A DNA stretch of 60,967 nucleotides from Candidatus Nanopelagicales bacterium (GCA_041675125.1 JBAYUM010000001.1:1-60967); one strand, 5' to 3'. Counted from the stretch's first letter, positions 1-17,748 are shown. Made by a program: numbers and translations. The notes: generated by a model not told the origin, from the letters alone.

Positions 1-1074
1 CTCTCGGTCGTTGATCGTGACCAGTTGGTGCTCGACCTCGAGCTGCCTGTGGTGCAGCAGGTCGGTACCGCGCCGGAAGACCTCAGCGAACACGTTCGGG
101 TATTGATCGAAGATGGCGTTCCACTCCGCAAGGGTCTTTCCCTGCACGATGTCGTAGAGCAGGTTCCAGAACTCGAAGCGCATCTCGCCCGAGGCATCCG
201 GTGGTATGAGCACGGTGTCCGTGCACATCCTCACGAAGTCGCCCCACTTCTCATCCTCGTACATCCAATCGAGCTCGCATGCGGTCATGAAGTCGCGGAA
301 CAGGCGAGGCTGGACCTGGGCGAACTGGAGCCAGTGCCCGTCCTTGGTGATCGCCACCAGCAGCTTGTATGAGTAGCTCAGGAAGGGCGCGCCGTCCTCG
401 CGCAGGATCATGCCGCCACCCTGGAATGCGTCGGGGAAGATCTGGGCCAGCGCTGCGTTGGTCTGCTGCCAGGGATCGAGCCCACCGAGCGCATGGGCAA
501 GGCTGGTGCCCACGACCTGCCCGGCACCACTGGTCTCGCGCTCGCGCAGCGCTGCGAAGATGCCCTGCAGGGCTGCCTGCGAGCCGCTCCACGAGGCCCA
601 TGGAGTGCTCGACCAGTTGGGACCCGGCCGGTCGGTAGCGGACCCGAAGGCGTGACTCAGGCCGAGTTTGGCCGAGACGAGGGCCTCGTCGGCCTTCACA
701 TCCGCCAAAGGCCCCTGTTCGCCGAAGCCGGTGACCTGCGCATAGATGAGTCGAGGGTTGAGCGCCGTGATCGAAGTCGCATCGAGCCCGAGGGCTACGA
801 GCTCGCAGACGCGTTCCTGAGTGACCACGACATCAGCGTCCGCCATGAGCCGGCGAGCGACCTCGAGGTCTGCCGCCTCGGCGCGGTCGAGCACGATGCT
901 CTTCTTGCCGCGGGCGATGAACAGGAAGCCAGGCTCCCTGCGCAGGACCGCCCCGCCTGGATTCTCGATCAGCACGACCTCGGCCCCGAAGTCGGCCAGG
1001 AGGTTGCCCACCTGCGCGCAGGACAGCCCATCCCCGAACTCGACGACCTTCAGACCGTTCAACACGCCGCTCAT
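1..1074 (-). CDS. Family III CoA-transferase (CaiB/BaiF-type); C-terminal end lies outside the window
   Basis: The minus-strand frame is open for all 358 codons from ATG (1074-1072) to the window edge. It is absent from the ORF track only because no stop lies inside the window. The N-terminus MSGVLNGLKVVEFGDGLSCAQVGNLLADFGAEVVLIENPGG is the typical family III CoA-transferase opening. Confidence 0.8.
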   Translation of the reverse strand, partial: MSGVLNGLKVVEFGDGLSCAQVGNLLADFGAEVVLIENPGGAVLRREPGFLFIARGKKSIVLDRAEAADLEVARRLMADADVVVTQERVCELVALGLDATSITALNPRLIYAQVTGFGEQGPLADVKADEALVSAKLGLSHAFGSATDRPGPNWSSTPWASWSGSQAALQGIFAALRERETSGAGQVVGTSLAHALGGLDPWQQTNAALAQIFPDAFQGGGMILREDGAPFLSYSYKLLVAITKDGHWLQFAQVQPRLFRDFMTACELDWMYEDEKWGDFVRMCTDTVLIPPDASGEMRFEFWNLLYDIVQGKTLAEWNAIFDQYPNVFAEVFRRGTDLLHHRQLEVEHQLVTINDRE

Positions 1075-1150
1075 GGGAGACCTTTCACCTGCTCGAATCT
1101 GACCGAAGGTCCGCAATCATGCCCGGAATCGGAACCGAAGTCTACGGTGT

Positions 1151-1162
1151 ATAGGTACCTAT
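1151..1162. promoter_or_regulatory. Perfect 12-bp AT-rich palindrome ATAGGTACCTAT, candidate operator upstream of the CoA-transferase gene
   Basis: Read directly. It lies in the 107-bp gap between the acyltransferase stop (1182) and the CoA-transferase start (1074), about 77 bp upstream of the latter. No cognate regulator was identified. Confidence 0.2.
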
Positions 1163-1181
1163 TGAGATGAAAGATCCTGAA

Positions 1182-3227
1182 TTACTGCCGTCCGATAATC
1201 TGCGCAAATACCCCCGAAAGGTGCTCGCTGGCAGCGATGGAGATGTGCCCGTCGTCACGGTAGAGATAGGCCCCGCCGAGTTCGGTGGTGCACAGGCGGC
1301 CAGGGCACAACTGCCCACGCACATCCAGCACGTCAGCACCGGTCACCTTGGCGACCCCGTTGATCGCAGTGCGGGCGGCCTGCTGATTCCTGTCAGCGAA
1401 GTCTTGGGGCATCTGCTCCCCGAGATCGCCTCCGATGGCAATGTCCAGGACCGAGAAGCGATGGGGATCAGAAGCGTAGGGAGAGGCGAAGTACGGCACG
1501 TCCTGAACCAGGACCACGCGGTGCCCTGACTCCTGCAGCTGTCGCACCGTCGACTCCATGCCGGCCTGCAGGCTGAGTCGCTTGGCATCCCGATCATTGG
1601 TCAACGCATCCGCACTCGGACCTGCGGAGAAGGCTTTCGAATTCCAGTAGACGCTCGACGCGCCGATCACGACGATTCCGGGCGGCTGCTGCTTGAGCCA
1701 TGCCAGGGTCTTCTGCACGAACTGCCGGCACGGTGAACGGGGCGCCGCAGTCGAGTGGAAATGCGTGTCGTAGAACGGGCACGCATTTGCCGTGGCAATG
1801 GTGAGTGGTTCATCCAGTGCGCCGGTGGCATTGATCACTGCTTCACTGAAGTGGTCAGCATGCGAATCGCCCACGAGATACACATGGGTTCCCTGTGCGT
1901 CCGCATGCCAGGTGCAGGCCGTCGCTCTGCGATCACTTGGAGCGATCGACTTATTGCATCCCGCCTTGTTTCCCGCATGCATCGGAGCGACCGATGCGAC
2001 GAACTCCTGCACGCGCGGGCTCCAGAATCCGTGGTCTGCTGCGATCCACAGGCCGAAGGCCAGAGCGATCGAGGGAACCATGGTGATGGCGACGATCCGT
2101 GTCATTCGTGGCTTGCTCACATCGCGGAGTCCGCGGATCGGCTGCTCGACCCACTGATACGAGATGAACGAGGGAACAAGAGAGGCAAGAGCGGCGACGA
2201 AGGCGATGCCTGGAGCCGTAGGCCACAGCATCAATGCGAACACGATGAGCGGCCAATGCCAGAGGTACCACGAGTACGAGATGTTGCCGACTGCGACAAA
2301 CGGACGCGTGCCCAGGAATCGACTCACAGGGTTAGTGACTGCGTAGCCGGCCATGAGCAGCAACAACGTGCTCACGACGGGGAGAATGGTCAACGGTCCT
2401 GGCCAGACCGTCTCGCCATTGACGATTCCCAGTGAGATCACCAGCCCGATGACGCCAAGAACTGCCAACACCGTGCCAACTGCACGGCCGATGAACGGCT
2501 CGATCCTGGCCGCGAGAAGTGCGAGCAGGGCTCCCGCAGCGAACTCCCACGCTCTGCTCGCCGGCCCATAGAAGCCGCCGAGCCAACTCGGCATCAATGG
2601 GATGTCGTGCCCCGCCGCCTCGAGCATCGCAATGGCGAAGGACACCAGGGCGACCGCCCCGACGAAGAGAACAGGCACCCAGCGAGCATTGAGCCGGCGC
2701 GCGAGCCTCCAGCCGAGGAAGAGCACTAGGGGGAAGATCAGGTAGAACTGCTCTTCAACTGACAGCGACCACGTGTTGAGCAGCGGGTTCGAGGCCGCCG
2801 GAGCGTCGAAATAGCCACCAGTCGTCTCGGCTATCACGATATTCGCGCTGAGCAGCAGCGCACCCAGCCCGGTCTTGGCGGCGATCTGCTGGTCGCCCAT
2901 CGGCGACTCGATCAGTGCCGACAGGAGGACGACGACTGCCACCAGCAGTGCCAGGGCCGGGGTCAGGCGCCTGAACCGTCTGGCATAGAAGGTCGAGAAG
3001 CGGAGGGTCTGCGTACGCACCCACTCCCGAGCGAGCATCGCAGTGATCACGAATCCGGAGATGACGAAGAACACGTCGACACCGAGAAAACCACCAGGCA
3101 CCGGCAGCCCGGCGTGGAACGCCACTACGAATCCGACCGCGAGGGCTCGCAGCCCCTGGATGTCGTCCCGACGGTTCTCCTGAGCCTGCGGGGACATCGT
3201 GGGCACGGCTGGACGGCCGTTCGTCAT
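1182..3227 (-). CDS. Membrane O-acyltransferase: acyltransferase_3 (OafA/OatA-like) domain fused to a C-terminal SGNH/GDSL-like domain
   Basis: 681-aa ORF. The N-terminal polytopic part has DIQGLRALAVGFVVAFHAG...GVDVFFVISGFVI (AT3 signature). The C-terminal soluble part has VYLVGDSHADH (GDS block). Confidence 0.85.
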   Translation of the reverse strand: MTNGRPAVPTMSPQAQENRRDDIQGLRALAVGFVVAFHAGLPVPGGFLGVDVFFVISGFVITAMLAREWVRTQTLRFSTFYARRFRRLTPALALLVAVVVLLSALIESPMGDQQIAAKTGLGALLLSANIVIAETTGGYFDAPAASNPLLNTWSLSVEEQFYLIFPLVLFLGWRLARRLNARWVPVLFVGAVALVSFAIAMLEAAGHDIPLMPSWLGGFYGPASRAWEFAAGALLALLAARIEPFIGRAVGTVLAVLGVIGLVISLGIVNGETVWPGPLTILPVVSTLLLLMAGYAVTNPVSRFLGTRPFVAVGNISYSWYLWHWPLIVFALMLWPTAPGIAFVAALASLVPSFISYQWVEQPIRGLRDVSKPRMTRIVAITMVPSIALAFGLWIAADHGFWSPRVQEFVASVAPMHAGNKAGCNKSIAPSDRRATACTWHADAQGTHVYLVGDSHADHFSEAVINATGALDEPLTIATANACPFYDTHFHSTAAPRSPCRQFVQKTLAWLKQQPPGIVVIGASSVYWNSKAFSAGPSADALTNDRDAKRLSLQAGMESTVRQLQESGHRVVLVQDVPYFASPYASDPHRFSVLDIAIGGDLGEQMPQDFADRNQQAARTAINGVAKVTGADVLDVRGQLCPGRLCTTELGGAYLYRDDGHISIAASEHLSGVFAQIIGRQ

Positions 3228-3402
3228 GATTCCTCCAGCAGCCCAGCGGCAATGGTCGAGTTGCGGAGTCTACGTGGGCTTTCTCTCATGAACGCGGCGC
3301 GCATGAGGGAGGAGCGACAGGTCATTCAGGCCTCACCGGGAACTGACGTATTCTGGACAACCTGCCTGCGAGCACCTCACCCGAACTCCCTGGAGCGACG
3401 TC

Positions 3403-5082
3403 TTGACCGAAGTACACGGCCGCAAGAGGGTCGAGGTCACGACTGCCACGATCATCACGATTGTCGTAGCGGTCCTTGCCCTGCTGCTCGTCGGCGTCAC
3501 CAATTCCGCCAGGGCCGGCGAGGCAGGACCCGATGGGACCGGCCTGGTCGATGGTTCGACCCAGGCACCATCGGCTCCGCCCACCACCCCGGCCACCGGC
3601 TCAGTGTCGGGGATCAAGAACGTGGTCCTGATCCTGGCCGACGACCTCGACTGGGCAGCCTTCGATCAGGTACCCCGCCTGGCAGCGCTCAAGGCGCAGG
3701 GCACCACGCTCTCGAACTTCGTCGTCACCGACTCCCTGTGCTGCCCCTCACGCACGTCCTTGATGAGAAGCCAGTTCGTGCACAACCACCGCGTGCTGTC
3801 GAATGTGCCGAAGTCTGGCGGTGGTTGGGAGAAGTTCTACGCTCGCGATCTGGAGATGAACTGCCTGCCAACCTGGCTCAATCGCTCGGGTGTGGACACG
3901 TCGCTCATTGGCAAGTACCTCAACGGTTTCCCGACCGGCGCTCCGGCGGAGACCTACATCCCGCCTGGCTGGAACTACTTCGTGTCATCCACCTCGAAGA
4001 ATCAAGCCTACGTGGGCTGGAACTACACACTCAACGAGAACGGGAAACTCAAGAGCTACGGCAACAAGCCGCAGCACTTCCTCAATGATGTGCTCACCGC
4101 GGCTGCCATCGCGCACATTGCCAGCGTGAAGGTTCCCTTCTTCATGGAGTTGGCCACCTACAACCCACATGTGCCGGCACCAGTTGCAGCGCGTCACGCA
4201 GGCACGCACAGCACGGACACCATTCCGCGCACCCCGTCCTTCAACACTCCTGGAACCGGTGAAGTCAACTGGCTGAGCTCGCGCCCGGTGCTCACCGCTC
4301 CACGCGTTGCCAACCTCGACCGGCTCTGGCGCAAGCGGCTTCAATCAACGGAATCCGTAGCCGACTCCTACGACGCGATCACTGCCCAACTCAAGGCGAC
4401 CGGTCATGCCGACGACACACTGGTGATCGTCACATCTGACAACGGATACCACGCCGGTGTCCATCGTCTTGCCACTGGCAAGCAGACCGCGTTCCGCGAG
4501 GATTCAGTTGTGCCCGCCATCTTCATCGGCCCAGGAATCGCCAAGGGTGCCGTCATTGACGAAACGACCTCAATGGTCGATCTCGGCCCCACTATCGCCG
4601 AACTGCTCGGGGCAAGCACCCCTGAATGGGTCGACGGCCGAAGCCTGCTTCCACTGCTCTCCGGCCAAGCAGACGTGCCCTGGCGCACTGCGACCTTGAC
4701 GGAGAGCCTGGCCCGCACCACCCCGGGCGATCCCGACTACACACCATTCGAGCCTCCCCCATTCCATGCACTGCGCAGCAGGCAATGGCTCTACGTCGAG
4801 TACCGCAGCGGTGAGGTCGAGCTCTACAACCTGAAGAACGACCCGTTTGAGATGAACAATGTCGTGAGTTCGACCAACCCCACGATCATTGGCCAACTGC
4901 ACGCTCAACTCGACGCCATGGTCCACTGCACCGGGCCGACCTGTCGAATCGCCGACAGCATGCCCAATGGCACGTCCATTCTTCCGCTTCCGCAGCCGAC
5001 ATCCAGCCCTGTGGCCACGGCTTCGCCAAGTGACTCAGCGAGCGGCACGCCATCGCCTACTGCAGCATCACCTGCTCAATAA
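3403..5082 (+). CDS. Exported formylglycine-dependent (type I) sulfatase with a Pro/Ser/Thr-rich C-terminal tail
   Basis: 559-aa ORF with a TTG start preceded by GGAG. It has an N-terminal hydrophobic anchor/signal (TTATIITIVVAVLALLLVGV...ARA), the metal-site block NVVLILADDLDW, and SLCCPSRTSLM (C-x-P-x-R formylglycine motif). The tail is PLPQPTSSPVATASPSDSASGTPSPTAASPAQ. Confidence 0.85.
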   Translation: MTEVHGRKRVEVTTATIITIVVAVLALLLVGVTNSARAGEAGPDGTGLVDGSTQAPSAPPTTPATGSVSGIKNVVLILADDLDWAAFDQVPRLAALKAQGTTLSNFVVTDSLCCPSRTSLMRSQFVHNHRVLSNVPKSGGGWEKFYARDLEMNCLPTWLNRSGVDTSLIGKYLNGFPTGAPAETYIPPGWNYFVSSTSKNQAYVGWNYTLNENGKLKSYGNKPQHFLNDVLTAAAIAHIASVKVPFFMELATYNPHVPAPVAARHAGTHSTDTIPRTPSFNTPGTGEVNWLSSRPVLTAPRVANLDRLWRKRLQSTESVADSYDAITAQLKATGHADDTLVIVTSDNGYHAGVHRLATGKQTAFREDSVVPAIFIGPGIAKGAVIDETTSMVDLGPTIAELLGASTPEWVDGRSLLPLLSGQADVPWRTATLTESLARTTPGDPDYTPFEPPPFHALRSRQWLYVEYRSGEVELYNLKNDPFEMNNVVSSTNPTIIGQLHAQLDAMVHCTGPTCRIADSMPNGTSILPLPQPTSSPVATASPSDSASGTPSPTAASPAQ

Positions 5083-7360
5083 CGCGCTTGGCCGCAGTCC
5101 CCTGGTCATACGAGCAGAAGCGACGGCGAAATTCAGCGAGCCTTTGCCGGTTCTCGGCTGACTGGTACTCAGCATTCGACATGATCGCGTTCAATTGCGC
5201 TTGATTCGACGCAACTGCACCAGGCGGTCCTGCAAGGAGATCGAAGTACGTGCCCCGAGCCTCCTGGTAGGCCTCCCAGTCATCGGCGTAGATGATGATC
5301 GGACGGTTCAGGACGGCATAGTCGAACATCACCGAGGAATAGTCGGTGATGAGCAGATCCGCTGCCAGGTAGCAGTCGATGATGGATGCGAATGCAGAGC
5401 CGTCGATCACTCGGCCCGAGGCGACCAGACCCTTGATCCGCGACCCCAAGGTCGTCGTGTGGTGTGCCCGCACGATGAAGACGAAGTCCTCGGGAACACG
5501 GCTGATCAGCTCCTCGAAATCAATGCGCAGCGAGGTATCGCCCTCGACATCACGGTAGGTGGGTGCGTAGAGCACCGCAGTCTGATCGGGGCGCACGCCG
5601 ACACGCTCCCTGCTCGCAGCGATGTCACTCGCCGTGGCATTGACGAGCACATCATTCCTGGGATAGCCGAATTCAAGCCACGAGTACGAGCACGGATAGG
5701 CGTGACTCCACATCTCGGTTGAATAGGCATTGGAACTCAAGGCATAGTCCCAATTGTCACTGCGACGCAGCAGGTCTGCGAACTCCTGCCGACTGCGTGA
5801 GGGATCGAGCTCCACGACATGATCGCCCCTGCGGGGAGCCTTTCGATTCGGATCGATGGCAGTGCTCGCGACTGAATGATTCATCACGTCAAGTCCGCAG
5901 TACTTCAATGGCGTGCCATGCATCGTCTGGATGACGACTTGCCCTGGGCGCTTGACGAAGGCCCCCGGGAAATTGACGTTGTTCACGAAGTACTTGGCGC
6001 GGGCAAGCACCGCCCACTGCTTCAGGGTGTTGGGAGCGACGTGCGCGACTCCTGGCGGGAGCTTGCCGACCTTGTCCTTCTCCATGACCCACACGGCCTT
6101 GAGGTGTGGCGCATAGGTCGGCAGGGCCTCGAAGATCGCTCTGGGATTGCAGCCATAGCCGGTGCCCCAGTACTCAGAGAACACGACGACATCGTCCTTC
6201 AATGGAAGCTTGCGGAAGAAGCCGTACCAGAGTCGTCCGACCGCGCGGACCTTGCGAACGGTGCGGCGCAACGGCCAATAGATGCGTCCAATGAAGCGGC
6301 GCAACGGAATGCGCTTCCTGTCCACCCAGTTGTACAGCGCGAACGCACGATACGAGCCCTTGCGGAACAGTCGGCCCCGCACATCACTTGGCAGATTCTT
6401 CGCGTGATCATCCGATGACGGTGGAGCATGCTTGCGCGCCGACAGCGTTGCCTGGGCGAAGAAGGGCTTGCGCTCCGACGCGGCGATGCGTCCTCGATGC
6501 CGAATGATGATGACGAAGTGATTCACCATGATGTCGTAGAGATGCTTGCGCACGCCGTCGCTGACGCCGAGGCGATCGAGCTCGTCGAACACCAGGTCGT
6601 ATTGCGCGAAGACATCGAAATGATGTGGGCTCGGTGTGCCCAGGATGTTGCCGCCCGATCTTCGCTGCCGATACAGGAGCACGACCCGGTTGAGGGTCAC
6701 CGCCCGCCTGGCATTGAGCAGGACCGCATAGGTGAAGGAGATGTCCTCATAGAGACCAGCGCGGAAGCTCACTCCGAGCTGCTGCAGGAAATCACGCCGA
6801 TACGCCTTGTTGCACGCGATGGGGAGCAGATTGAAGAGCCGACGATGGTCCTTGGGCTGGAAGCTGCCCACGGACAGGCTCGCCAGCTGCTCCGCTCCCC
6901 AGCTCACCGCCTCGCGCCCGTCCCACCAGACACGTGAGTAGTTGTAGATCAGGACTTCAGGAAGGTCATTGCTGTTCAGCTTGTCGGCGATGGCCTTCAG
7001 CGAACCGGGGGCGAAGGTGTCGTCCCCGTCGAGGAAGAGGATGTACTCGCCCTCGGCTGCCGCCACACCGGCATTGCGCGCATGACCCAAGCCGACGTTC
7101 TTCTCAAGGTGCAAGGGTCGTATCCGCGCATCCGCCCGCGCCATCTCATCGGCGATGTCGCCACTGTGGTCAGGTGAGCAGTCATCGACGACAACGATCT
7201 CGAAATCCTCGAAATCCTGCTCGAGAACTGACGTGAGGCACTCGCGCAGGTACGACTGCACGTTGTAGACCGGCACGATGATGGAGAAGAACGCCATGGA
7301 AGCCGAGGATAGGCCTACCCGATGCCCGTCCTTGACCCATGAAACTCGCAAGGTGCTCAT
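5057..7360 (-). CDS. Bifunctional GT2 glycosyltransferase / CDP-glycerol glycerophosphotransferase (TagB/TagF family)
   Basis: 767-aa ORF. The N-terminal half has FSIIVPVYNVQSYLRECLTSVLEQDFEDFEIVVVDDCSPD and FLDGDD (GT-A fold, DxD). The C-terminal half has VLYAPTYRD ... LITDYSSVMFDYAVLNRPIIIYADDWEAY, typical of TagF-like enzymes. ATG at 7297 (MAFFSIIVPVYN) is an alternative start. Confidence 0.85.
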   Translation of the reverse strand: MSTLRVSWVKDGHRVGLSSASMAFFSIIVPVYNVQSYLRECLTSVLEQDFEDFEIVVVDDCSPDHSGDIADEMARADARIRPLHLEKNVGLGHARNAGVAAAEGEYILFLDGDDTFAPGSLKAIADKLNSNDLPEVLIYNYSRVWWDGREAVSWGAEQLASLSVGSFQPKDHRRLFNLLPIACNKAYRRDFLQQLGVSFRAGLYEDISFTYAVLLNARRAVTLNRVVLLYRQRRSGGNILGTPSPHHFDVFAQYDLVFDELDRLGVSDGVRKHLYDIMVNHFVIIIRHRGRIAASERKPFFAQATLSARKHAPPSSDDHAKNLPSDVRGRLFRKGSYRAFALYNWVDRKRIPLRRFIGRIYWPLRRTVRKVRAVGRLWYGFFRKLPLKDDVVVFSEYWGTGYGCNPRAIFEALPTYAPHLKAVWVMEKDKVGKLPPGVAHVAPNTLKQWAVLARAKYFVNNVNFPGAFVKRPGQVVIQTMHGTPLKYCGLDVMNHSVASTAIDPNRKAPRRGDHVVELDPSRSRQEFADLLRRSDNWDYALSSNAYSTEMWSHAYPCSYSWLEFGYPRNDVLVNATASDIAASRERVGVRPDQTAVLYAPTYRDVEGDTSLRIDFEELISRVPEDFVFIVRAHHTTTLGSRIKGLVASGRVIDGSAFASIIDCYLAADLLITDYSSVMFDYAVLNRPIIIYADDWEAYQEARGTYFDLLAGPPGAVASNQAQLNAIMSNAEYQSAENRQRLAEFRRRFCSYDQGTAAKRVIEQVMLQ

Positions 7361-7384
7361 TTGGCGCTGTAGTAAGGTCGGCGA

Positions 7385-8281
7385 GTGAATTTAGGTGGAG
7401 CAGATTGCCTGAACCCTGTCCTAGTCGGCGGAACCGGGCGAAGTGGCTCCACGATCCTGGGCCAGATCCTGGGCCAGCATCCTGACCTGATGCTCACTGA
7501 TCCGCCTGAGATCCGGTTCCTCGCCAATGACCATGGCGTCGCCGAGGCACTGACCATGACTCGCGGACCCTGGCTCAAGCGCCGCAAGGCCAAGTCAGAG
7601 GCGAAGTTCTGCCTCGAGCGCACCAAGACGCTGTGGTTCTGGCGTGCGGCCAAGATCGGTCTGCATACTTCGATCACGATCGAGGAGGTCGACGCCCTGG
7701 GCAAGGACTATCTCGACCAATTCGGCCGCGACCCGATCGCCGCGTCACAGGCGTTCACCTACGCCATCATGCGCAAGGTGGCGATCAACGCCAACGGCCG
7801 CAGATGGGTCGACACAACGCCCGCCAATGCCCGCATCTCCGACCAGATCGAGCCGATCTATCCAGATTCCCAGGTCATCGGCATGATCCGTGACGGTCGC
7901 GATGTGGCAGCCTCCTTCGTGGCCCAGACCTTCGGGCCCAATGAGATCTTCGCCTCGCTGCGCCAGTGGGAGAAGCGCTCGCTGCTCATCCACCAGTCGA
8001 CCCTGGCAAGCCGACCTGGCCGCTGCATCATCGTCGACATGCTCGACCTGGTCGATCGTGATCGGGACAGCACCCTCGAGCGGATCTGCGATTTCCTGAA
8101 TGTGCCCGTCGATCCGACGATGAAGGGCTGGTTCGACGAGACGGTCAATGCGTCCAACGCCCACGTCGGGCGTTGGCGCACCCAGTTCGATGAGGCCACC
8201 ACTAGGGAAATCGACCGGATCTACGGCGAGATGGTCGACCGCCTGTCGGCCCAAGGCGTCCAGATCCCGCTCGAGTCCTAG
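7385..8281 (+). CDS. Cytoplasmic PAPS-dependent sulfotransferase family protein
   Basis: 298-aa ORF with a GTG start. VLVGGTGRSGSTILG resembles the 5'-phosphosulfate-binding loop. MIRDGRDVAASF resembles the 3'-phosphate-binding R-x-x-R-D-x-x-x-S block. No signal peptide or TM segment is present. Confidence 0.7.
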   Translation: MNLGGADCLNPVLVGGTGRSGSTILGQILGQHPDLMLTDPPEIRFLANDHGVAEALTMTRGPWLKRRKAKSEAKFCLERTKTLWFWRAAKIGLHTSITIEEVDALGKDYLDQFGRDPIAASQAFTYAIMRKVAINANGRRWVDTTPANARISDQIEPIYPDSQVIGMIRDGRDVAASFVAQTFGPNEIFASLRQWEKRSLLIHQSTLASRPGRCIIVDMLDLVDRDRDSTLERICDFLNVPVDPTMKGWFDETVNASNAHVGRWRTQFDEATTREIDRIYGEMVDRLSAQGVQIPLES

Positions 8282-8369
8282 CCAATGCGCCGGGTTCGGC
8301 CAATGCCGCGCATCCGCAGGCCCTGTCGCCTCTTAAGGTGGGAATCATCATGACCAAGGTAGGAAAGCA

Positions 8370-9284
8370 ATGAGCCGCGGCGCCCCCACGCAGGAGCGCA
8401 CGGTCCAGGTCTTCCTGCCCCATCGCGCCGGACTGCCTCGTCTCACCACCTATTTCGCCACGCTCTGGTCACGACGCCACTTCGCTGCCGAGCTCTCCAG
8501 CGCCACGATGCGCGCAGCCCACACCAACACCTTCTTCGGCCAGTTCTGGCTGGTGATCAGCCCGGCACTCAATGCTGCTGTCTACTTCCTGCTGGTCAAT
8601 GTCATCCGCGGCGGCAGCGCCGGACCCGACTTCTTCATGCACCTGCTGGCAGGCCTCTTCGCCTTCAACTTCATCCAGACAGTCATGACCAATGGCGCGG
8701 ACTCGGTCGTCAAGGGCGGCAGCCTGGTGCTGAATACCGCTTTCCCCCTGCTGCTCCTCCCTTTCTCGGCACTGCGCACGGCCTTCTTCAGATTCCTGCC
8801 CTCGCTCGGGATCCTGCTGGCCTTCTTCATCTACTTCGACTACGCCGGTCCGCATTCCCAGGAGTGCAGCCAGGCGACGGGTGCGTGCTTCGATCTCAAC
8901 ACGATTCACTTCAGTCCAGTCCAGCTCATGGCCATTCCAGCGTTCCTGCTGATCTTCGTCTTCGCCATGGGCCTCTCAGCCCTGATGGCCACCGTGCAGG
9001 TGTACTTCCGCGACACCACCCAGTTGCTGCCCTATGCCACTCGCATCTGGCTCTATCTGTCACCAGTGCTCTACTTCGCCGATCAGATGAAGCCATGGAT
9101 GCTGAAGTTCGAGGTCTTCAATCCCCTCTACCCCCTGCTTGGAGTCTGGACCGACACATTGATCCGCGGCACCATGCCGCCACTGACCTGGTGGCTGGGA
9201 TCGGCAGCCTGGGCCTTCGGCACCCTCATTCTCGGCACCTTCTGGTTCATCTCGCGTGAGCGCGAGTTCGCGGTGCGGATTTGA
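8370..9284 (+). CDS. ABC-2 type polymer exporter permease (TagG/Wzm-like)
   Basis: 304-aa ORF with about 6 hydrophobic helices. The N-terminal cytoplasmic segment LWSRRHFAAELSSATMRAAHTNTFFGQFWLVISPALNA is typical of ABC-2 teichoic-acid/O-antigen permeases. It is followed directly by the ATPase gene. Confidence 0.8.
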   Translation: MSRGAPTQERTVQVFLPHRAGLPRLTTYFATLWSRRHFAAELSSATMRAAHTNTFFGQFWLVISPALNAAVYFLLVNVIRGGSAGPDFFMHLLAGLFAFNFIQTVMTNGADSVVKGGSLVLNTAFPLLLLPFSALRTAFFRFLPSLGILLAFFIYFDYAGPHSQECSQATGACFDLNTIHFSPVQLMAIPAFLLIFVFAMGLSALMATVQVYFRDTTQLLPYATRIWLYLSPVLYFADQMKPWMLKFEVFNPLYPLLGVWTDTLIRGTMPPLTWWLGSAAWAFGTLILGTFWFISREREFAVRI

Positions 9285-9309
9285 TGATGAACCCGACAGG
9301 AGGTGCACT

Positions 9310-10134
9310 GTGATCGACGAAGAGGACGACACCCTCATCCCGAAGATTGCCGAACGAAAGATCTCAGAGGACATCGCCGTATCCGTCACGGAGCTCGATG
9401 TCACCTATCGCACCACGTTCGAGAAGCGGCCGACGCTGAAGCAGGCCGTCGTCCGCCTGGGGCGGGGCAAGCGGTCAGTCAAGACCGTCGAGGCATTGAA
9501 GGACGTCACCTTCGAGGTGCAACGAGGTACCGTCCTGGGCATCGTCGGACACAATGGCGCCGGCAAGAGCACGCTCATGCGCACCATCGCCGGCATCGTT
9601 CCACCGACCCGGGGGCGCATCGAGGTCGCAGGCCGCACGAGCACACTGCTGTCCTTGGGCGTTGGCTTCAACCGAGCACTCACCGGCCGCGAGAACATCA
9701 TCCTTGGCGGCCTGGCAGCCGGGCTGACCAAGGAAGAGCTCGAGGAGCGCTACGAGCGCATTGCGGAGTTCGCCGACATCGGAGACTTCATCGATATGCC
9801 CATGCGTTCGTATTCATCCGGCATGGGCGCTCGTCTGGCCTTCAGCGTCGCAGTCCACCTCGACCCGGACATCCTCCTGATCGACGAAGCACTGTCGACT
9901 GGCGACGCCGTGTTCAAGGAGAAGGCATCGCAGCGCATGATGGAGCTGGTCGACAACTCGAGCACCATGCTGCTGATCTCGCATGCCCTTCGCACGATCA
10001 TCAACATGTCAACTGAGTGCATCTGGCTCGATCATGGCAAGCTCATGATGCAGGGCGATCCTGAAGAGGTGGTCGACGCCTACACCGAGTTCGTCCACGT
10101 GAAGAAGACGTCAGCAGCCATGAACGACATGTGA
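9310..10134 (+). CDS. ABC polymer exporter ATP-binding protein (TagH/Wzt-like)
   Basis: Walker A GHNGAGKSTL, signature YSSGMGARLAF, Walker B ILLIDEALSTGD. I prefer GTG 9310, which has AGGAGG at 9298-9303 with a 6-nt spacer. The ORF track begins at 9256, which would overlap the permease by 29 nt. Confidence 0.85.
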   Translation: MIDEEDDTLIPKIAERKISEDIAVSVTELDVTYRTTFEKRPTLKQAVVRLGRGKRSVKTVEALKDVTFEVQRGTVLGIVGHNGAGKSTLMRTIAGIVPPTRGRIEVAGRTSTLLSLGVGFNRALTGRENIILGGLAAGLTKEELEERYERIAEFADIGDFIDMPMRSYSSGMGARLAFSVAVHLDPDILLIDEALSTGDAVFKEKASQRMMELVDNSSTMLLISHALRTIINMSTECIWLDHGKLMMQGDPEEVVDAYTEFVHVKKTSAAMNDM

Positions 10135-10139
10135 TTGGA

Positions 10140-11663
10140 CTACTCCTCGACCCGTTCCACCTGCTGCGGCATGAAGCGCCAGGCCACCAGAACCCCGGTG
10201 GCCGTGATCAACGCACCGATGAACAGCGCCCAGGTCATGCCCGAGACGAAGGCCTCACCGGCTACTCGACGATAGATCACTGACACGCCCTGGGGTATCT
10301 GACCGGCCGCAATCGAGGCCGCAGCCAAGGACTCGCGCGCTGCAGACAGCGCACCCGCTGGCAGCTGATTGACCTGCTCGCCGGCAGCGGCAATGGCGGC
10401 CTCGATGTTCTGCCGATACGTCACCGACATGGTGGCTCCGAGAATGGCAACACCGAAGGACCCGCCCAGTTCGCCCATCGCATCGTTGACTGCCGACCCC
10501 ATCCCAGAGCGCTCTGTCGGCACAGAGGCAAGGACTCCATTGGTCGCTTGGGGAAGGGTCATGCCCAGGCCCGCTCCCACGATGCCGAAGGTGATGCCGA
10601 CGTAGGCATACGGCGTTGACGACGAGAGGTAGCTGAAGCCGATCATCCCGACGGTCACGATGGACATGCCGATGACGACCATGCGGCGCGAGCCGAATCT
10701 CTCGGCGAGCCGCGGGCTGACCAAGGACGCAACCAGGAGTCCACCGGCGCCAGGCAGTACCGCGACTCCCGATTGCAGCGGGGTCATGCCCTGCACGAGC
10801 TGCAGGAACTGCGGAAGGAAGAACATGGCACCCATCAGCGCGAAATAGACGAGGCCGACGATCACGATGGATGACGAGAACAGTCGCTGCTTGAAGAATT
10901 CAAGGGGCAGCATCGCGCGCGGCGCTCGTCTCTCCCACCAGACAAAGCCTCCGAGCAGCAGGACTGCCGCTATTGCCGCCGAGATGGTTGATGCACTCAC
11001 GCCGGAATCTGGGACCTCGATGATCGTGACGACCAGGGCGATCAGTCCCAGGCCTGAAAGCACCGCACCGAGCAGATCCAGTCTCGGCTTTGCTGCATCA
11101 CGCGATTCGGGAACGAGAATGACCACCGCGATGAGGACGAGTATCGCGATGGGTGGATTGACCAAGAAGATCGCGTGCCACGAGTAATGCTCCAGGAGTA
11201 GGCCACCGACAATCGGGCCGATCGCCACGCCAAGGCCGGCAACGGCCGCCCAGGTGCCGATCGCCTGCGCTCGTTCCCTTCGATCGGGAAACACCTGCAC
11301 GAGGATGCTGAGCGTCGACGGCATGATGAACGCCCCTCCGACGCCCATCAGCGCCCTGCACAGCGTCAGCTCGTTCGCATTCGCGACGAATACCGCGCTG
11401 ATGGACCCGAGGGTGAAGATGCACAAGCCGATGATGAGCATGCGTCGACGACCGAACCTATCGCCGAGCGAGCCGGCAAGAAGCAAGGTGCCGGCGAACA
11501 TGACCGAGTAAGCGTCAATGACCCACTGCAACTGCGAGGTCGTCGCTCCCAGATCCTCCTGCAGGCGCGGCAGCGCGACATTGACAATGGTGTTGTCGAG
11601 TGAGATGACTGCGAGCGCCGCTGACAGCACCACCAGGACGGCCCAACGATTCGTCTGCCTCAT
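10140..11663 (-). CDS. MFS transporter, DHA2 (EmrB/QacA, 14-TMS) family
   Basis: 507-aa polytopic ORF. LDNTIVNVALPRLQEDLGATTSQLQWVIDAYSVMFAGTLLLAGSLGDRFGRRR is the DHA2 motif region. Confidence 0.85.
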   Translation of the reverse strand: MRQTNRWAVLVVLSAALAVISLDNTIVNVALPRLQEDLGATTSQLQWVIDAYSVMFAGTLLLAGSLGDRFGRRRMLIIGLCIFTLGSISAVFVANANELTLCRALMGVGGAFIMPSTLSILVQVFPDRRERAQAIGTWAAVAGLGVAIGPIVGGLLLEHYSWHAIFLVNPPIAILVLIAVVILVPESRDAAKPRLDLLGAVLSGLGLIALVVTIIEVPDSGVSASTISAAIAAVLLLGGFVWWERRAPRAMLPLEFFKQRLFSSSIVIVGLVYFALMGAMFFLPQFLQLVQGMTPLQSGVAVLPGAGGLLVASLVSPRLAERFGSRRMVVIGMSIVTVGMIGFSYLSSSTPYAYVGITFGIVGAGLGMTLPQATNGVLASVPTERSGMGSAVNDAMGELGGSFGVAILGATMSVTYRQNIEAAIAAAGEQVNQLPAGALSAARESLAAASIAAGQIPQGVSVIYRRVAGEAFVSGMTWALFIGALITATGVLVAWRFMPQQVERVEE

Positions 11664-11709
11664 GCGGGCACTCTATTCTCGACTGTTCCGCACATTTCGA
11701 ACCTCGCAG

Positions 11710-12924
11710 TCAGGCGACATGCGCAGTTCGGTTCATTCGCACTGCCCATCTTGCTCCGTAGAGTCCTGCACCCAGAGCAGCAGCAGCTCCAAGCCCCAGC
11801 GCCCATCGAGGTCCCGCGGTCTCGGCAACCCAGCCGACAATTGGCGCGCCCACGGGAGTGCTCCCGATGAAAGCGACTGTCCACAGTGACATGACGCGTC
11901 CACGCATCTGGGGCTCGGTATGCAATTGCACTGCACTGTTGCCGGCCGATGTGAACCAGATGCTGGCGGCACCCACCGGAATCATCGCGACCGCCGCCCA
12001 TATGACTGACGGCATCACTGCAGCTGCGAAGACAGCGAGCCCGAACACTCCTGATGCAAGTGCGATGGCCCTGATTCCGCTTGATTGCCTTGTCGCGCTG
12101 ATGAGGCCGCCGATCACAGCGCCGACTCCCATAGCGGCCGAGAGCAGTCCAAGGCTCTGTGCTCCACTGTCGAATGTCTCTGAAGTGAGTGCAGGCAGCA
12201 CCACCTGGAATTCGTAGGTGAGCGTGCCGACAACGGCCATCATGATCAGGGGCACCCGCAGATCAGGGTTGCGCCATACGTATCTCATGCCTTCACGGAG
12301 CTGGCCCGGTGCCCGTTCAACAGGCTCCACCGGGATGAGCTGATCACTTCGCATGATTGCGTAGGCCGTGATCACGCCGACGAAGCTTGCAGCATTCGCT
12401 GCGAAGCACCATCCAAGGCCTATCGAGGCGATCATGACTCCCGCCAGTGCGGGACCAACAATTCGAGCGCCATTGATCACAACCGAGTTCAGGCTCACGG
12501 CATTGCGAACAAGTTCCGGATCGACCATCTCGCGAACGAAGGCAGCTCTCGCCGGCATGTCAAACACGTAGATGAATCCGAGGAAGAGCGAGAGGATCAG
12601 GACCAGGACGATGTTCGCATGACCGGTCAGCACCAGAACGGCCAGGAGTCCCGCCTGCACGCCGGCAAGTGACTGCGTGGTGATCAGGAGTCTGCGCTTG
12701 TCCACTCGATCGACGACAACGCCACCGTAGGGGCCGAAGACCAGCACAGGCAGGAACTGCAGGGCCACAGCCAGTCCGATGGATGCTGCAGAGCCCGAGA
12801 TCTCGAGAATCAACCAGGCCATGGCCACGGATTGAATCCACGTGCCAATGAGCGATATGGCCTGCCCGGCGAAGAACCTCCGATAGTTCGGAATGCCAAG
12901 GGCAGCGAAGGTATCGCGAACCAT
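11710..12924 (-). CDS. MFS transporter (EntS/transmembrane-secretion-effector-like subfamily)
   Basis: About 404-aa polytopic ORF with NYRRFFAGQAISLIGTWIQSVAMAWL...GGVVVDRVDKRRLL. ATG at 12924 overlaps the AKR stop as TGATG, which suggests translational coupling. The track start at 12927 is a TTG one codon upstream. Confidence 0.8.
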   Translation of the reverse strand: MVRDTFAALGIPNYRRFFAGQAISLIGTWIQSVAMAWLILEISGSAASIGLAVALQFLPVLVFGPYGGVVVDRVDKRRLLITTQSLAGVQAGLLAVLVLTGHANIVLVLILSLFLGFIYVFDMPARAAFVREMVDPELVRNAVSLNSVVINGARIVGPALAGVMIASIGLGWCFAANAASFVGVITAYAIMRSDQLIPVEPVERAPGQLREGMRYVWRNPDLRVPLIMMAVVGTLTYEFQVVLPALTSETFDSGAQSLGLLSAAMGVGAVIGGLISATRQSSGIRAIALASGVFGLAVFAAAVMPSVIWAAVAMIPVGAASIWFTSAGNSAVQLHTEPQMRGRVMSLWTVAFIGSTPVGAPIVGWVAETAGPRWALGLGAAAALGAGLYGARWAVRMNRTAHVA

Positions 12925-16365: not shown

Positions 16366-16382
16366 GTGTTTCCCTCAGTTCG

Positions 16383-17747: not shown

Positions 17748-17748
17748 T

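What the first reader, a model, noticed from the sequence alone, without database searches (positions are those of the whole stretch)
1182..10134. Candidate sulfated wall-teichoic-acid-like polymer locus: sulfotransferase, exported sulfatase, TagF/GT2, ABC-2 exporter and O-acyltransferase
Six adjacent genes cover the logic of a decorated cell-wall glycopolymer pathway. They are a GT2/TagF-type glycerophosphotransferase fusion, a TagG/TagH-like ABC-2 exporter, an OafA-type O-acyltransferase, a cytoplasmic protein with both PAPS-binding motifs (GTGRSGST and RDGRDVAAS), and a membrane-anchored or exported sulfatase with an intact C-x-P-x-R formylglycine motif. A cytoplasmic sulfotransferase would write the mark and an extracytoplasmic sulfatase would erase it, both embedded in teichoic-acid machinery. 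That arrangement suggests sulfation of a teichoic-acid-like polymer or its lipid-linked precursor, followed by remodelling outside the cell. I know of no characterised sulfated teichoic acid pathway. No PAPS-synthesis genes and no formylglycine-generating enzyme lie in the window, so key accessory functions must be encoded elsewhere.
Basis: partly seen in the sequence, partly recalled or inferred. Interest (0 to 1): 0.7.

Follow-up and report, generated by a model that had tools for sequence, protein, structure and literature searches.

The report
Teichoic-acid locus with sulfotransferase–sulfatase pair
In uncultured freshwater actinobacteria, a teichoic-acid polymerase gene is always flanked by a cytoplasmic sulfotransferase gene and an exported sulfatase gene, which suggests (without any chemical proof yet) a wall polymer that is sulfated inside the cell and trimmed outside it.

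Summary
All six genes lie at the stated coordinates, with the stated domains and motifs. The window holds no PAPS-synthesis or formylglycine-generating gene.

It is a three-gene core: exported S1 sulfatase (+), TagF-type glycerophosphotransferase (−), PAPS-type sulfotransferase (+).
- All 26 species-level genomes of one sulfotransferase clade with enough flank keep this order and orientation.
- So do 6 of 6 orthologous metagenome loci with both flanks, although the surrounding genes differ.
- None of 40 genomes carrying the sister sulfotransferase clade has the core.
- None of 70 more distant TagF loci has a sulfatase.
- The ABC exporter and the O-acyltransferase are frequent but dispensable neighbours.

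The sulfotransferase has a confident sulfotransferase fold with invariant PAPS motifs. The sulfatase keeps the full formylglycine catalytic set, and its model most resembles exo sugar-6-O-sulfatases. The "GT2/TagF fusion" is simply the domain layout of Staphylococcus epidermidis TagF.

The best reading is a glycerol-phosphate polymer that is sulfated in the cytoplasm and desulfated outside the cell. The acceptor, the sulfate on the polymer and the sulfatase's target are all inferred. I found no published sulfated teichoic acid. I rate it a new variant of a known kind and moderately to highly interesting.

The parts
1182..3227 (-). AT3 + SGNH O-acyltransferase (OafA/OatA type). A frequent but not obligatory neighbour of the core.
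   Evidence: Pfam Acyl_transf_3 and SGNH. About 10 hydrophobic segments followed by a C-terminal SGNH domain. Orthologue adjacent in 13 of about 30 related loci.
3403..5082 (+). Exported or membrane-tethered Cys-type (formylglycine) S1 sulfatase. Core gene 1.
   Evidence: Pfam Sulfatase and SGSH_C. Invariant D80 D81 C113-x-P-x-R117 K171 H256 D346 N347 K360 in 38 homologues. N-terminal hydrophobic segment 14-32 followed by a Pro/Thr/Ser linker. AF2 core pLDDT above 90. Best PDB folds are exo sugar-6-O-sulfatases of subfamily S1_11. Present in 26 of 26 clade-A loci with enough flank.
5057..7360 (-). TagF-type CDP-glycerol glycerophosphotransferase with an N-terminal GT2 domain (probable true start at 7297). 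Core gene 2.
   Evidence: Pfam Glyphos_transf 360 bits and Glycos_transf_2 130 bits. Aligns over both domains with S. epidermidis TagF 3l7i, E 4e-65. The two catalytic histidines are conserved (IQTMHGTPLK, VRAHH), as is the GT2 DxD motif (FLDGDD). NCBIfam best match is TarF.
7373..7378 (+). Conserved TANNNT box (TAAGGT) 6 nt upstream of the sulfotransferase GTG. Probable -10 element of a leaderless transcript.
   Evidence: Alignment of the TagF/sulfotransferase intergenic region from 19 loci. The motif ..GCTG-TAGTAGGGT.. is kept across all lineage groups while the rest diverges. Sequence read. The promoter role is inferred from general knowledge of actinobacterial leaderless genes.
7385..8281 (+). 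Cytoplasmic PAPS-type sulfotransferase (Sulfotransfer_3; TPST/CurM-ST-like fold). Core gene 3.
   Evidence: Pfam PF13469 80 bits. Invariant GGTGRSGST, E42/R44 and RDGRDV..SF in 38 sequences. AF2 pLDDT 92. The top 50 Foldseek PDB hits are all sulfotransferases. Monophyletic clade A coincides exactly with the TagF and sulfatase neighbourhood.
8370..9284 (+). ABC-2-type glycopolymer exporter permease (Wzm/TagG-like), downstream of the sulfotransferase on the same strand.
   Evidence: Weak Pfam ABC2_membrane. NCBIfam galactan-export Wzm/RfbD-like, E 8.5e-13, below cut-off. Orthologue adjacent only in sulfotransferase lineages of 82% identity or more and in L040.
9256..10134 (+). ABC exporter ATPase (Wzt/TagH-like) with no extra C-terminal carbohydrate-binding domain.
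   Evidence: Pfam ABC_tran. NCBIfam Wzt/RfbE-like 223 bits and TagH-like 183-213 bits, all below equivalog cut-offs. The match runs to residue 277 of 292.

Best explanation
The core is a three-gene cell-envelope module.
1. The TagF-type enzyme builds a glycerol-phosphate-containing polymer, or glycosylated glycerol-phosphate units, on a lipid carrier at the cytoplasmic face of the membrane.
2. The divergently transcribed cytoplasmic sulfotransferase uses PAPS to O-sulfate that polymer or its lipid-linked precursor. The most likely site is a sugar hydroxyl, possibly C6.
3. In this genome the sulfated polymer is then exported by the co-directional ABC-2 transporter, and it may be O-acylated outside by the AT3-SGNH enzyme.
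4. The membrane-tethered formylglycine sulfatase sits on the outer face on a flexible Pro/Thr/Ser linker. It removes some or all of the sulfate after export. This would edit surface charge or structure, or clear and recycle the mark.

Shown here:
- The identities, folds and catalytic motifs of the proteins.
- Their predicted sidedness.
- The strict co-inheritance of the three genes.

Inferred:
- The acceptor.
- The position of sulfation.
- That the sulfatase works on the cell's own polymer.
- That PAPS and formylglycine are made from genes elsewhere in the genome.
For: 1. Parts are genuine.
- Sulfotransferase: Pfam, invariant 5'-PSB and 3'-PB motifs, a high-confidence model, and only sulfotransferases among the top 50 PDB fold hits.
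- Sulfatase: complete invariant S1 catalytic set and export signal. The nearest folds are exo sugar-6-O-sulfatases.
- TagF: catalytic histidines conserved against 3l7i.

2. Linkage is strict.
- In one genome per species, all 26 clade-A sulfotransferase loci with enough flank show sulfatase(+), TagF(-), sulfotransferase(+).
- Three more loci show TagF plus sulfotransferase before the contig ends.
- 0 of 40 clade-B loci show either neighbour.
- In the TagF-centred metagenome scan, 6 of 6 orthologous loci with both flanks hold both partners, and 4 truncated loci hold the partner that could be seen.
- 0 of 70 more distant TagF/GT2 loci hold a sulfatase; 47 of those have at least 1.8 kb of downstream flank.

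3. The trio is kept while its surroundings change. At least four different flank arrangements occur, two of them with no adjacent ABC exporter.

4. Both enzymes form trio-specific clades.
- The sulfotransferase and the sulfatase each form a monophyletic clade.
- Each is sister to a 'housekeeping' paralogue at another conserved site, so the pair was recruited together.

5. The sister sulfatase clade usually lies next to a SulP sulfate permease. This argues that the family hydrolyses sulfate esters.

6. In more distant relatives the trio sits inside larger glycopolymer loci with a second TagF, GT1/GT2 enzymes, a nucleotidyltransferase and ABC-2 genes.

7. A sulfated surface polysaccharide that also carries glycerol phosphate, is exported by an ABC transporter and has a sulfotransferase in its locus is chemically documented in Cobetia marina (PMC11766843).
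Against: - There is no chemical evidence of any kind. The organisms are uncultured MAG lineages.
- No PAPS-synthesis gene, CysQ, FGE or anaerobic sulfatase-maturing enzyme lies in the window or beside the trio in any locus examined.
- Cultured Nanopelagicales are reported to lack complete assimilatory sulfate reduction (PMC12817590). Sulfate activation alone was not assessed.
- No TagO/TagA/TagB/TagD or LCP ligase gene is in the 61-kb window, so attachment to peptidoglycan is not shown.
- The sulfotransferase's closest solved relatives act on tyrosine in peptides or on a polyketide intermediate, not on glycans. Acceptor type therefore cannot be read from homology.
- Making and then removing a PAPS-derived sulfate is costly, and no regulatory logic was found.
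- Phosphonate-monoester/phosphodiester hydrolases of the same fold score nearly as well as sulfatases.
Confidence: 0.5

Rival explanations
1. Transient cap model. The sulfotransferase places a single sulfate on the non-reducing terminal sugar of the growing chain. This stops polymerisation and marks the chain as finished, as methyl or phosphate caps do in ABC-dependent O-antigen synthesis. After export the exo-acting sulfatase removes the cap. This is a more specific form of the main explanation.
For: - The sulfotransferase and the polymerase are divergently transcribed across about 90 bp and are never separated.
- The best structural neighbours of the sulfatase are exo-acting 6-O-sulfatases that take a terminal sugar: BT4656, BuS1_11 and Bacple_01701.
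- In this window the sulfotransferase is directly followed by the ABC exporter genes.
Against: - The ATPase has no C-terminal carbohydrate-binding domain of the kind that reads terminal caps in Wzt proteins.
- In two lineage groups no ABC exporter is adjacent to the trio.
- Fold similarity (TM about 0.65) does not establish exo action.
- No sulfate cap is known in any such pathway (my own knowledge).
Confidence: 0.12
2. Sulfate-supply model. The exported sulfatase does not touch the cell's own polymer. It releases sulfate from environmental organosulfates such as algal or humic sulfate esters. That sulfate is taken up and activated to PAPS for the sulfotransferase, so the two genes are linked as supplier and consumer.
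For: - The sister sulfatase clade (about 51% identity) is translationally coupled to an MFS transporter. In three of the four loci examined it lies beside a SulP sulfate permease and sulfur-amino-acid genes, a scavenging-type context.
- Cultured Nanopelagicales are reported to depend on external sulfur sources (PMC12817590).
Against: - No sulfate transporter or sulfate-activation gene accompanies the trio in any of about 30 loci.
- A general scavenging enzyme has no reason to stay convergently abutted to the TagF gene through repeated rearrangements.
- The trio sulfatase forms its own clade, distinct from the MFS/SulP-linked one.
- Free sulfate is usually not limiting in lakes (my own knowledge).
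Confidence: 0.13
3. Phosphodiesterase ('teichoicase') model. The 'sulfatase' is a formylglycine-dependent phosphodiester or phosphonate-monoester hydrolase. It trims or recycles the glycerol-phosphate polymer, for example to recover phosphorus. The sulfotransferase has an unrelated acceptor.
For: - Phosphonate monoester hydrolases are the best sequence hits over the C-terminal half and lie within the top 50 fold hits.
- NCBIfam's best, sub-threshold hit is the phosphoric/sulfuric ester hydrolase PehA.
- Phosphorus limitation is common in lakes, and wall-polymer phosphodiesterases are known in Bacillus (my own knowledge).
Against: - Full-length sequence matches and the best fold matches are carbohydrate sulfatases.
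- The gene co-occurs strictly with a sulfotransferase and never with the 70 other TagF/GT2 loci.
- The sister clade sits by a sulfate permease.
Confidence: 0.08
4. Different-acceptor model. The three genes are co-regulated envelope functions, but the sulfotransferase sulfates something other than the TagF product. Candidates are a glycolipid, a lipid carrier, a peptide or protein tyrosine, or a small metabolite. The sulfatase then acts on that molecule.
For: - The closest solved relatives are tyrosylprotein sulfotransferases, the CurM sulfotransferase and mycobacterial Stf1.
- The sister clade B sits at a housekeeping locus with no glycopolymer genes, so the ancestral acceptor was probably not a TagF product.
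Against: - Clade A is defined exactly by adjacency to TagF.
- An independent, distantly related TagF/GT2 locus (L110) also has a Sulfotransfer_3-like gene next to it.
- The sulfatase's nearest folds are glycan sulfatases.
Confidence: 0.15

Closest known systems
Wall teichoic acid pathway of Staphylococcus epidermidis and Bacillus subtilis (TagF polymerase, TagGH exporter)
   Same: - Same polymerase family and the same two-domain layout as S. epidermidis TagF, with both catalytic histidines conserved.
- An ABC-2-type exporter whose ATPase resembles TagH/Wzt.
- Cytoplasmic assembly followed by export.
   Different: - No TagO/A/B/D or LCP genes nearby.
- A PAPS sulfotransferase and a formylglycine sulfatase flank the polymerase. 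I know of no such arrangement in a characterised tag/tar locus, and the paper library holds none.
- The known tailoring reactions are D-alanylation, glycosylation and O-acetylation.
Sulfated capsular polysaccharides exported by ABC transporters in Gram-negative bacteria (Cobetia marina KMM 1449 CPS; Mesorhizobium loti KpsS, the latter from my own knowledge)
   Same: - Cytoplasmic PAPS-dependent sulfation of a surface polymer that leaves the cell through an ABC transporter.
- The Cobetia polymer carries both sulfate and glycerol phosphate (PMC11766843).
   Different: - Those loci include PAPS-synthesis genes and no sulfatase.
- Their glycerol phosphate is a side group added by an LtaS-like enzyme, not by a TagF-type transferase.
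- The organisms are diderm.
Heparan sulfate 6-O-sulfation and extracellular editing by Sulf1/Sulf2 in animals (my own knowledge)
   Same: Logic only. A sulfotransferase writes the mark inside a compartment, and a formylglycine sulfatase edits 6-O-sulfate on the finished polymer outside the cell.
   Different: There is no homology of the pathway. The polymer is different, and the Sulf enzymes are endo-acting with a large hydrophilic insert. No bacterial counterpart is known to me.
Polysaccharide synthesis loci that encode an enzyme degrading their own product (AlgL, BcsZ, PslG; my own knowledge)
   Same: A degrading or trimming enzyme for the product is kept inside the biosynthetic locus and acts outside the cytoplasm.
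   Different: Those enzymes cut the backbone. Here the candidate enzyme would remove a substituent.
Streptomyces bifunctional GT2/CDP-glycerol glycerophosphotransferases
   Same: Next-closest relatives of the TagF gene, at 44-46% identity over the full length.
   Different: Their loci hold rhamnose-synthesis genes, a second large TagF/GT2 and a GT1, but no sulfotransferase and no sulfatase.
Mycobacterial Stf sulfotransferases and sulfolipid/sulfoglycolipid pathways
   Same: Actinobacterial PAPS sulfotransferases acting on envelope molecules. Stf1 (2zq5) is among the fold hits.
   Different: Identity is low (about 17%). The acceptors are trehalose lipids or menaquinone-type molecules. There is no TagF partner and no paired exported sulfatase in those loci (my own knowledge).

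Membership tests
PAPS-dependent sulfotransferase (Pfam Sulfotransfer_3; TPST/CurM-ST-like fold) | Profile match above the curated threshold | tested here: met
   PF13469 80.3 bits against a cut-off of 27; PF00685 27.9 against 22.
PAPS-dependent sulfotransferase (Pfam Sulfotransfer_3; TPST/CurM-ST-like fold) | 5'-phosphosulfate-binding loop and 3'-phosphate-binding motif | tested here: met
   GGTGRSGST (15-23) and RDGRDV..SF (169-178) are invariant in 38 homologues. They align with the TPST motifs GG.PRSGTT and RDGR.
PAPS-dependent sulfotransferase (Pfam Sulfotransfer_3; TPST/CurM-ST-like fold) | Sulfotransferase fold | tested here: met
   AF2 pLDDT 92, pTM 0.90. The top 50 Foldseek PDB hits are all sulfotransferases, TM 0.5-0.6.
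PAPS-dependent sulfotransferase (Pfam Sulfotransfer_3; TPST/CurM-ST-like fold) | Catalytic base positioned next to the PAPS sulfate | tested here: inconclusive
   E42 is invariant and lies 23 residues after the P-loop arginine, against 21 in TPST2 by my count. Its position in the model was not inspected.
PAPS-dependent sulfotransferase (Pfam Sulfotransfer_3; TPST/CurM-ST-like fold) | PAPS-dependent sulfuryl transfer to a defined acceptor | not testable with these tools
   Needs an enzyme assay.
S1 formylglycine-dependent sulfatase | Profile match and C/S-x-P-x-R maturation motif | tested here: met
   PF00884 130 bits against a cut-off of 25. C113-C-P-S-R117 is invariant.
S1 formylglycine-dependent sulfatase | Metal- and sulfate-binding residues (two Asp, Asp-Asn, two Lys, His) | tested here: met
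   D80 D81 K171 H256 D346 N347 K360 are invariant in 38 sequences. The second His of the GKWH motif is replaced (GKYL), as it is in the ulvan rhamnose-sulfatase 6hr5.
S1 formylglycine-dependent sulfatase | Sulfatase fold, closest to carbohydrate sulfatases | tested here: met
   Foldseek top hits are S1_11 6-O-sulfatases: 5g2v E 9e-28, TM 0.65/0.73. Phosphonate monoester hydrolases also score, at about E 1e-23.
S1 formylglycine-dependent sulfatase | A formylglycine-generating system in the same genome | not testable with these tools
   None in the 61-kb window. The whole genome is not available.
TagF-type CDP-glycerol glycerophosphotransferase | Profile match and conserved catalytic histidines | tested here: met
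   PF04464 360 bits. Aligned to 3l7i at E 4e-65. H of IQTMHGTPLK corresponds to the residue mutated in 3l7j, and the second His (VRAHH) is conserved.
Wall teichoic acid pathway (strict sense) | Linkage-unit enzymes (TagO/TagA/TagB), CDP-glycerol synthase (TagD) and LCP ligase encoded with the polymerase | tested here: not met
   None found among ORFs of 180 aa or more in the 61-kb window. Distant relatives have a second TagF, a nucleotidyltransferase and GT1/GT2 genes nearby.
Wall teichoic acid pathway (strict sense) | TagG/TagH-type ABC-2 exporter | tested here: inconclusive
   The permease is below the Pfam threshold. The best NCBIfam hits are galactan exporter Wzm/Wzt and TagH, all below equivalog cut-offs.
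AT3-SGNH O-acyltransferase (OafA/OatA type) | Membrane AT3 domain fused to an extracytoplasmic SGNH domain | tested here: met
   PF01757 91 bits and PF19040 123 bits. About 10 hydrophobic segments precede the SGNH domain.
Cap-dependent ABC glycan export (Wzt with carbohydrate-binding domain) | C-terminal cap-binding domain on the ATPase | tested here: not met
   The 292-aa ATPase matches Wzt/TagH nucleotide-binding domains up to residue 277 and has no extra domain.

The most novel reading that the evidence does not exclude
A reversible sulfation cycle on a teichoic-acid-type polymer. Sulfate is written in the cytoplasm by a dedicated sulfotransferase. It is edited on the cell surface by a dedicated tethered sulfatase, either as tunable surface charge (a counterpart of D-alanylation) or as a removable chain-end cap. 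This would be the first sulfated teichoic-acid-like polymer. It would also be the first bacterial sulfatase whose natural substrate is the cell's own envelope, in an abundant order of lake bacteria.
Probability: 0.35. Interest if true: 0.8.

Novelty: new variant of a known kind. Interest (0 to 1): 0.62.

Why it matters
- Teichoic-acid tailoring is known to control charge, autolysins, phage binding and resistance to cationic compounds. Sulfate has not been described among the tailoring groups in anything I could find.
- Bacterial formylglycine sulfatases are almost always treated as catabolic enzymes for host or algal glycans. A sulfatase locked into a biosynthetic locus points to post-export editing of a bacterial polymer. 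That principle is known from animal heparan sulfate but not from bacteria.
- The carriers belong to Nanopelagicales-type freshwater actinobacteria. Surface chemistry in that group is thought to shape phage and grazer pressure.
- The sulfur economy of this group is unusual (reported dependence on reduced sulfur). A PAPS-consuming wall modification would therefore also say something about their sulfur budget.
- The three-gene core is compact, strictly defined and directly testable with recombinant enzymes, even without a culture.

Tried and rejected
1. A second sulfotransferase. A 377-aa protein ('cluster 5') lies next to the sulfatase in more distant loci. It has HKTGTT and TLRN..PSAW motifs that resemble PAPS loops. 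It has no Pfam, NCBIfam, PDB or profile-profile support and is absent from the window. It is left as a motif-level suspicion only.
2. PAPS genes near the module. E. coli CysC, CysN and CysD were searched against 1.4 Mb of held loci plus the window. The only hits were CysD-like genes about 6 kb from clade-B sulfotransferases in L059 and L079, plus a weaker, fragmented hit in L073. There was no CysN or CysC, and nothing lay near any trio.
3. Regulatory RNA and signals. There were no Rfam matches in 1-12000. There were no sigma-70 consensus promoters, and terminator-like sites were no more frequent than in shuffled sequence.
4. Literature. No paper in the library uses any phrasing of 'sulfated teichoic acid'. 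The closest are a genome paper speculating about PAPS sulfotransferases for wall modification in Pontimonas and putative sulfated exopolysaccharide clusters in Actinoplanes.
5. The idea that the GT2-TagF fusion marks a capsule-type sugar/glycerol-phosphate co-polymerase. It is rejected as a necessary reading because S. epidermidis TagF has the same layout.
6. The idea that the six genes form one fixed operon. It is rejected because the flanks vary.
7. The public gene call for the sulfotransferase (263 aa, P0003). It starts after the P-loop and is wrong.

Full report
**Observation**

They carry the stated domains:
- an AT3+SGNH acyltransferase (1182-3227, −);
- a Sulfatase+SGSH_C protein (3403-5082, +);
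- a Glycos_transf_2+Glyphos_transf protein (5057-7360, −);
- a Sulfotransfer_3 protein of 298 aa (7385-8281, +);
- a weak ABC-2 permease (8370-9284, +);
- an ABC ATPase (9256-10134, +).

The quoted motifs are present: GGTGRSGST and RDGRDVAAS in the sulfotransferase, and CCPSR in the sulfatase. Hydropathy gives no membrane segment in the sulfotransferase, TagF or the ATPase. It gives one N-terminal segment in the sulfatase and about ten in the acyltransferase. Pfam scans of the remaining large ORFs of the 61-kb window found no sulfate-activation gene and no formylglycine-generating enzyme. The window is a contig of an uncultured freshwater actinobacterium. Its proteins are named 'Candidatus Nanopelagicales bacterium' by public sources.

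**The parts**

*Sulfotransferase.*
- An alignment of 38 homologues keeps the 5'-phosphosulfate loop, the 3'-phosphate motif and a Glu/Arg pair (E42, R44) invariant.
- The AlphaFold model is confident (pLDDT 92).
- All of its top 50 PDB fold matches are PAPS sulfotransferases, led by the CurM sulfotransferase domain, tyrosylprotein sulfotransferases and mycobacterial Stf1. TM-scores of only 0.5-0.6 show it is a distant member.
- In a library of 1.8 billion representatives, only two clusters exceed 50% identity, and the next relatives are at 39% or less.

*Sulfatase.*
- It keeps every canonical S1 catalytic residue across 38 homologues.
- It has an N-terminal hydrophobic segment followed by a Pro/Thr/Ser-rich linker, and a similar C-terminal tail. 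Both regions are disordered in the model.
- Its best fold matches are exo-acting sugar 6-O-sulfatases of subfamily S1_11. Phosphonate-monoester hydrolases score somewhat lower.

*Polymerase.*
- It aligns over both of its domains with S. epidermidis TagF (3l7i, E 4e-65), and the two catalytic histidines are conserved.
- The 'GT2/TagF fusion' is therefore the classical TagF layout.

*ABC exporter.*
- It resembles mycobacterial galactan Wzm/Wzt and TagH about equally, below curated cut-offs.
- The ATPase has no cap-binding domain.

**Linkage**

This is the main result. A scan of one genome per species returned 80 loci with relatives of the sulfotransferase, all from freshwater Actinomycetota MAGs.
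- A neighbour-joining tree splits them at the midpoint into two clades.
- In clade A, all 26 loci with enough flank carry sulfatase(+), TagF(−), sulfotransferase(+) in the same order and orientation. Three more show TagF and the sulfotransferase before the contig ends.
- In clade B, none of 40 loci with flank has either neighbour.
- Clade B instead sits at a conserved housekeeping site, near murI, znuACB and a Cpn10-like gene, and next to a cysteine-synthase-like/ThiS pair or an amine-oxidase-like gene.

The reverse test centred on TagF:
- All six orthologous metagenome loci (58% identity or more) with both flanks carry both partners.
- Four truncated loci carry the partner that could be seen.
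- None of 70 more distant TagF/GT2 loci (27-44% identity) carries a sulfatase.
- The nearest non-orthologous TagF/GT2 proteins are from Streptomyces (44-46%). Their loci have rhamnose genes and a second TagF, but no sulfotransferase and no sulfatase.

The trio's surroundings change between lineages:
- acyltransferase + trio + ABC exporter + MFS pumps (this window and close relatives);
- acyltransferase + trio + an unrelated Fe-S protein;
- 'cluster 5' + trio + ATPase/ABC-2 permease/GT1/TagB-like;
- 'cluster 5' + trio + a 2-oxoglutarate oxygenase and an aquaporin.

The conserved, selected unit is therefore the three-gene core. The exporter and the acyltransferase are common accessories.

The trio sulfatases also form their own clade. 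Its sister clade is a sulfatase translationally coupled to an MFS transporter, and in three of the four loci examined it lies beside a SulP sulfate permease. Both the writer and the eraser thus look like duplicates of lineage-wide paralogues that were recruited together to the TagF gene.

A small detail supports the annotated start of the sulfotransferase. A TANNNT box (TAAGGT, 7373-7378) lies six bases before the GTG. It is conserved across all lineage groups while the rest of the intergenic region diverges. This is the pattern of a leaderless actinobacterial transcript (my inference). The public 263-aa gene call removes the P-loop and is wrong.

**Mechanism**

The best-supported reading has four steps.
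1. TagF assembles a glycerol-phosphate-containing polymer in the cytoplasm.
2. The sulfotransferase O-sulfates it there, the only compartment with PAPS.
3. The polymer is exported, in this genome by the adjacent ABC-2 system, and may be O-acylated outside.
4. The tethered sulfatase removes sulfate on the outer face.

The protein identities, their sidedness and their co-inheritance are shown. The acceptor, the position of sulfation and the sulfatase's substrate are inferred. The resemblance of the sulfatase to sugar 6-O-sulfatases hints at a sugar C6 sulfate, but it does not prove it.

The rivals are:
- a chain-end cap version of the same idea;
- a supply role for the sulfatase, releasing environmental sulfate;
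- a phosphodiesterase role for the 'sulfatase';
- a non-polymer acceptor for the sulfotransferase.

The strict, rearrangement-proof adjacency to TagF argues against the supply and non-polymer models. So do the separate sulfatase clade and the absence of any sulfate transporter next to the trio. Those models are not excluded.

**Comparison with what is known**

- The polymerase and exporter belong to the teichoic-acid/ABC-dependent glycopolymer world. Strict wall-teichoic-acid membership is not shown, because no linkage-unit, CDP-glycerol or LCP genes lie in the window.
- Cytoplasmic sulfation of ABC-exported surface polysaccharides is known in Gram-negative bacteria. One documented polymer carries both sulfate and glycerol phosphate (Cobetia marina, PMC11766843). 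Those loci have PAPS genes and no sulfatase.
- A genome paper on the marine actinobacterium Pontimonas speculated that PAPS sulfotransferases modify its wall (PMC6106888).
- No paper in the searchable library mentions a sulfated teichoic acid in any phrasing.
- The write-inside/edit-outside logic resembles heparan-sulfate editing by extracellular Sulf enzymes in animals (my own knowledge).

**Verdict**

- Novelty: a new variant of a known kind. Sulfated surface glycopolymer synthesis is coupled here to a TagF polymerase and a dedicated exported sulfatase in monoderm freshwater actinobacteria.
- Interest is moderate to high. The association is unusually clean and directly testable, but everything about the chemistry remains inference.

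Noticed in passing
window 15607-18657 (-): A complete decaprenyl-phospho-arabinose donor pathway lies 5.5 kb from the ABC exporter. It comprises DprE2 (15607-16365), DprE1 (16383-17747) and decaprenyl-phosphate phosphoribosyltransferase (17749-18657). All three score above NCBIfam equivalog cut-offs. This suggests arabinofuranose-containing envelope polymers in a Nanopelagicales-type actinobacterium. The exporter's best NCBIfam match is the mycobacterial galactan exporter.
   Followed up: partly
L002:4713-5846(-), L005:4854-5984(-), L024, L026, L028, L032 (alignment A2): A conserved protein of 377-441 aa lies divergently upstream of the sulfatase in 10 more distant trio loci. It has LHIGVHKTGTT and TLRN..PSAWQQ motifs that resemble PAPS-binding loops. 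It has no Pfam, NCBIfam, PDB or profile match and is absent from the window. It may be a second, very divergent sulfotransferase.
   Followed up: partly
L004, L030-L085 (clade-B loci): A sister sulfotransferase clade (44-54% identity) occupies a conserved housekeeping site across Nanopelagicales, including an acI MAG. The site runs murI, Ham1, znuACB and a DUF3618/Cpn10-like gene, then the sulfotransferase, then a PALP/ThiS pair or an amine-oxidase-like gene. Its acceptor is unknown.
   Followed up: partly
L086, L087, L088, L091, L092: The sister sulfatase clade (about 51% identity) is always translationally coupled (4-bp overlap) to an upstream MFS transporter. It usually lies beside a SulP sulfate permease, a Cys/Met PLP enzyme and msrA. 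This looks like an organosulfate-scavenging unit. L086 is on the same chromosome (OZ257128.1) as the clade-B sulfotransferase locus L055.
   Followed up: partly
L059:1795-2766(+), L079:2767-3648(+): A CysD-like gene (52-54% identity to E. coli CysD, PAPS_reduct domain) lies about 6 kb upstream of clade-B sulfotransferases, after two methyltransferase genes. There is no adjacent CysN or CysC.
   Followed up: partly
L110:8335-9117(-): In an unrelated metagenome contig, a TagF/GT2 gene of only 40% identity is followed by a convergent Sulfotransfer_3-like gene (motif VIRDGRDCVSS) that is cut by the contig end. ABC exporter genes lie upstream and no sulfatase is in view. This may be an independent pairing of TagF with a sulfotransferase.
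   Followed up: partly
window 7385-8281: The public gene call for the sulfotransferase (P0003, 263 aa) starts at an internal Met and removes the PAPS P-loop. The conserved N-terminus and the TANNNT box at 7373-7378 support the GTG at 7385.
   Followed up: yes
L028, L037, L085, L025, L044 (record titles): Several freshwater MAGs that carry these genes are deposited under implausible names ('Bifidobacterium breve', 'uncultured Bifidobacteriaceae', 'uncultured Rubrivirga sp.'). Their genes cluster with Nanopelagicales MAGs.
   Followed up: no
window 38325-40532(-) versus L013:10938-13136(-): The CCG/4Fe-4S protein lies 28 kb from the trio in the window but directly abuts the sulfotransferase in L013, L015 and L016. 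The ABC exporter, MFS pumps, DPA genes and other genes in between therefore look like an insertion or rearrangement relative to those genomes.
   Followed up: no
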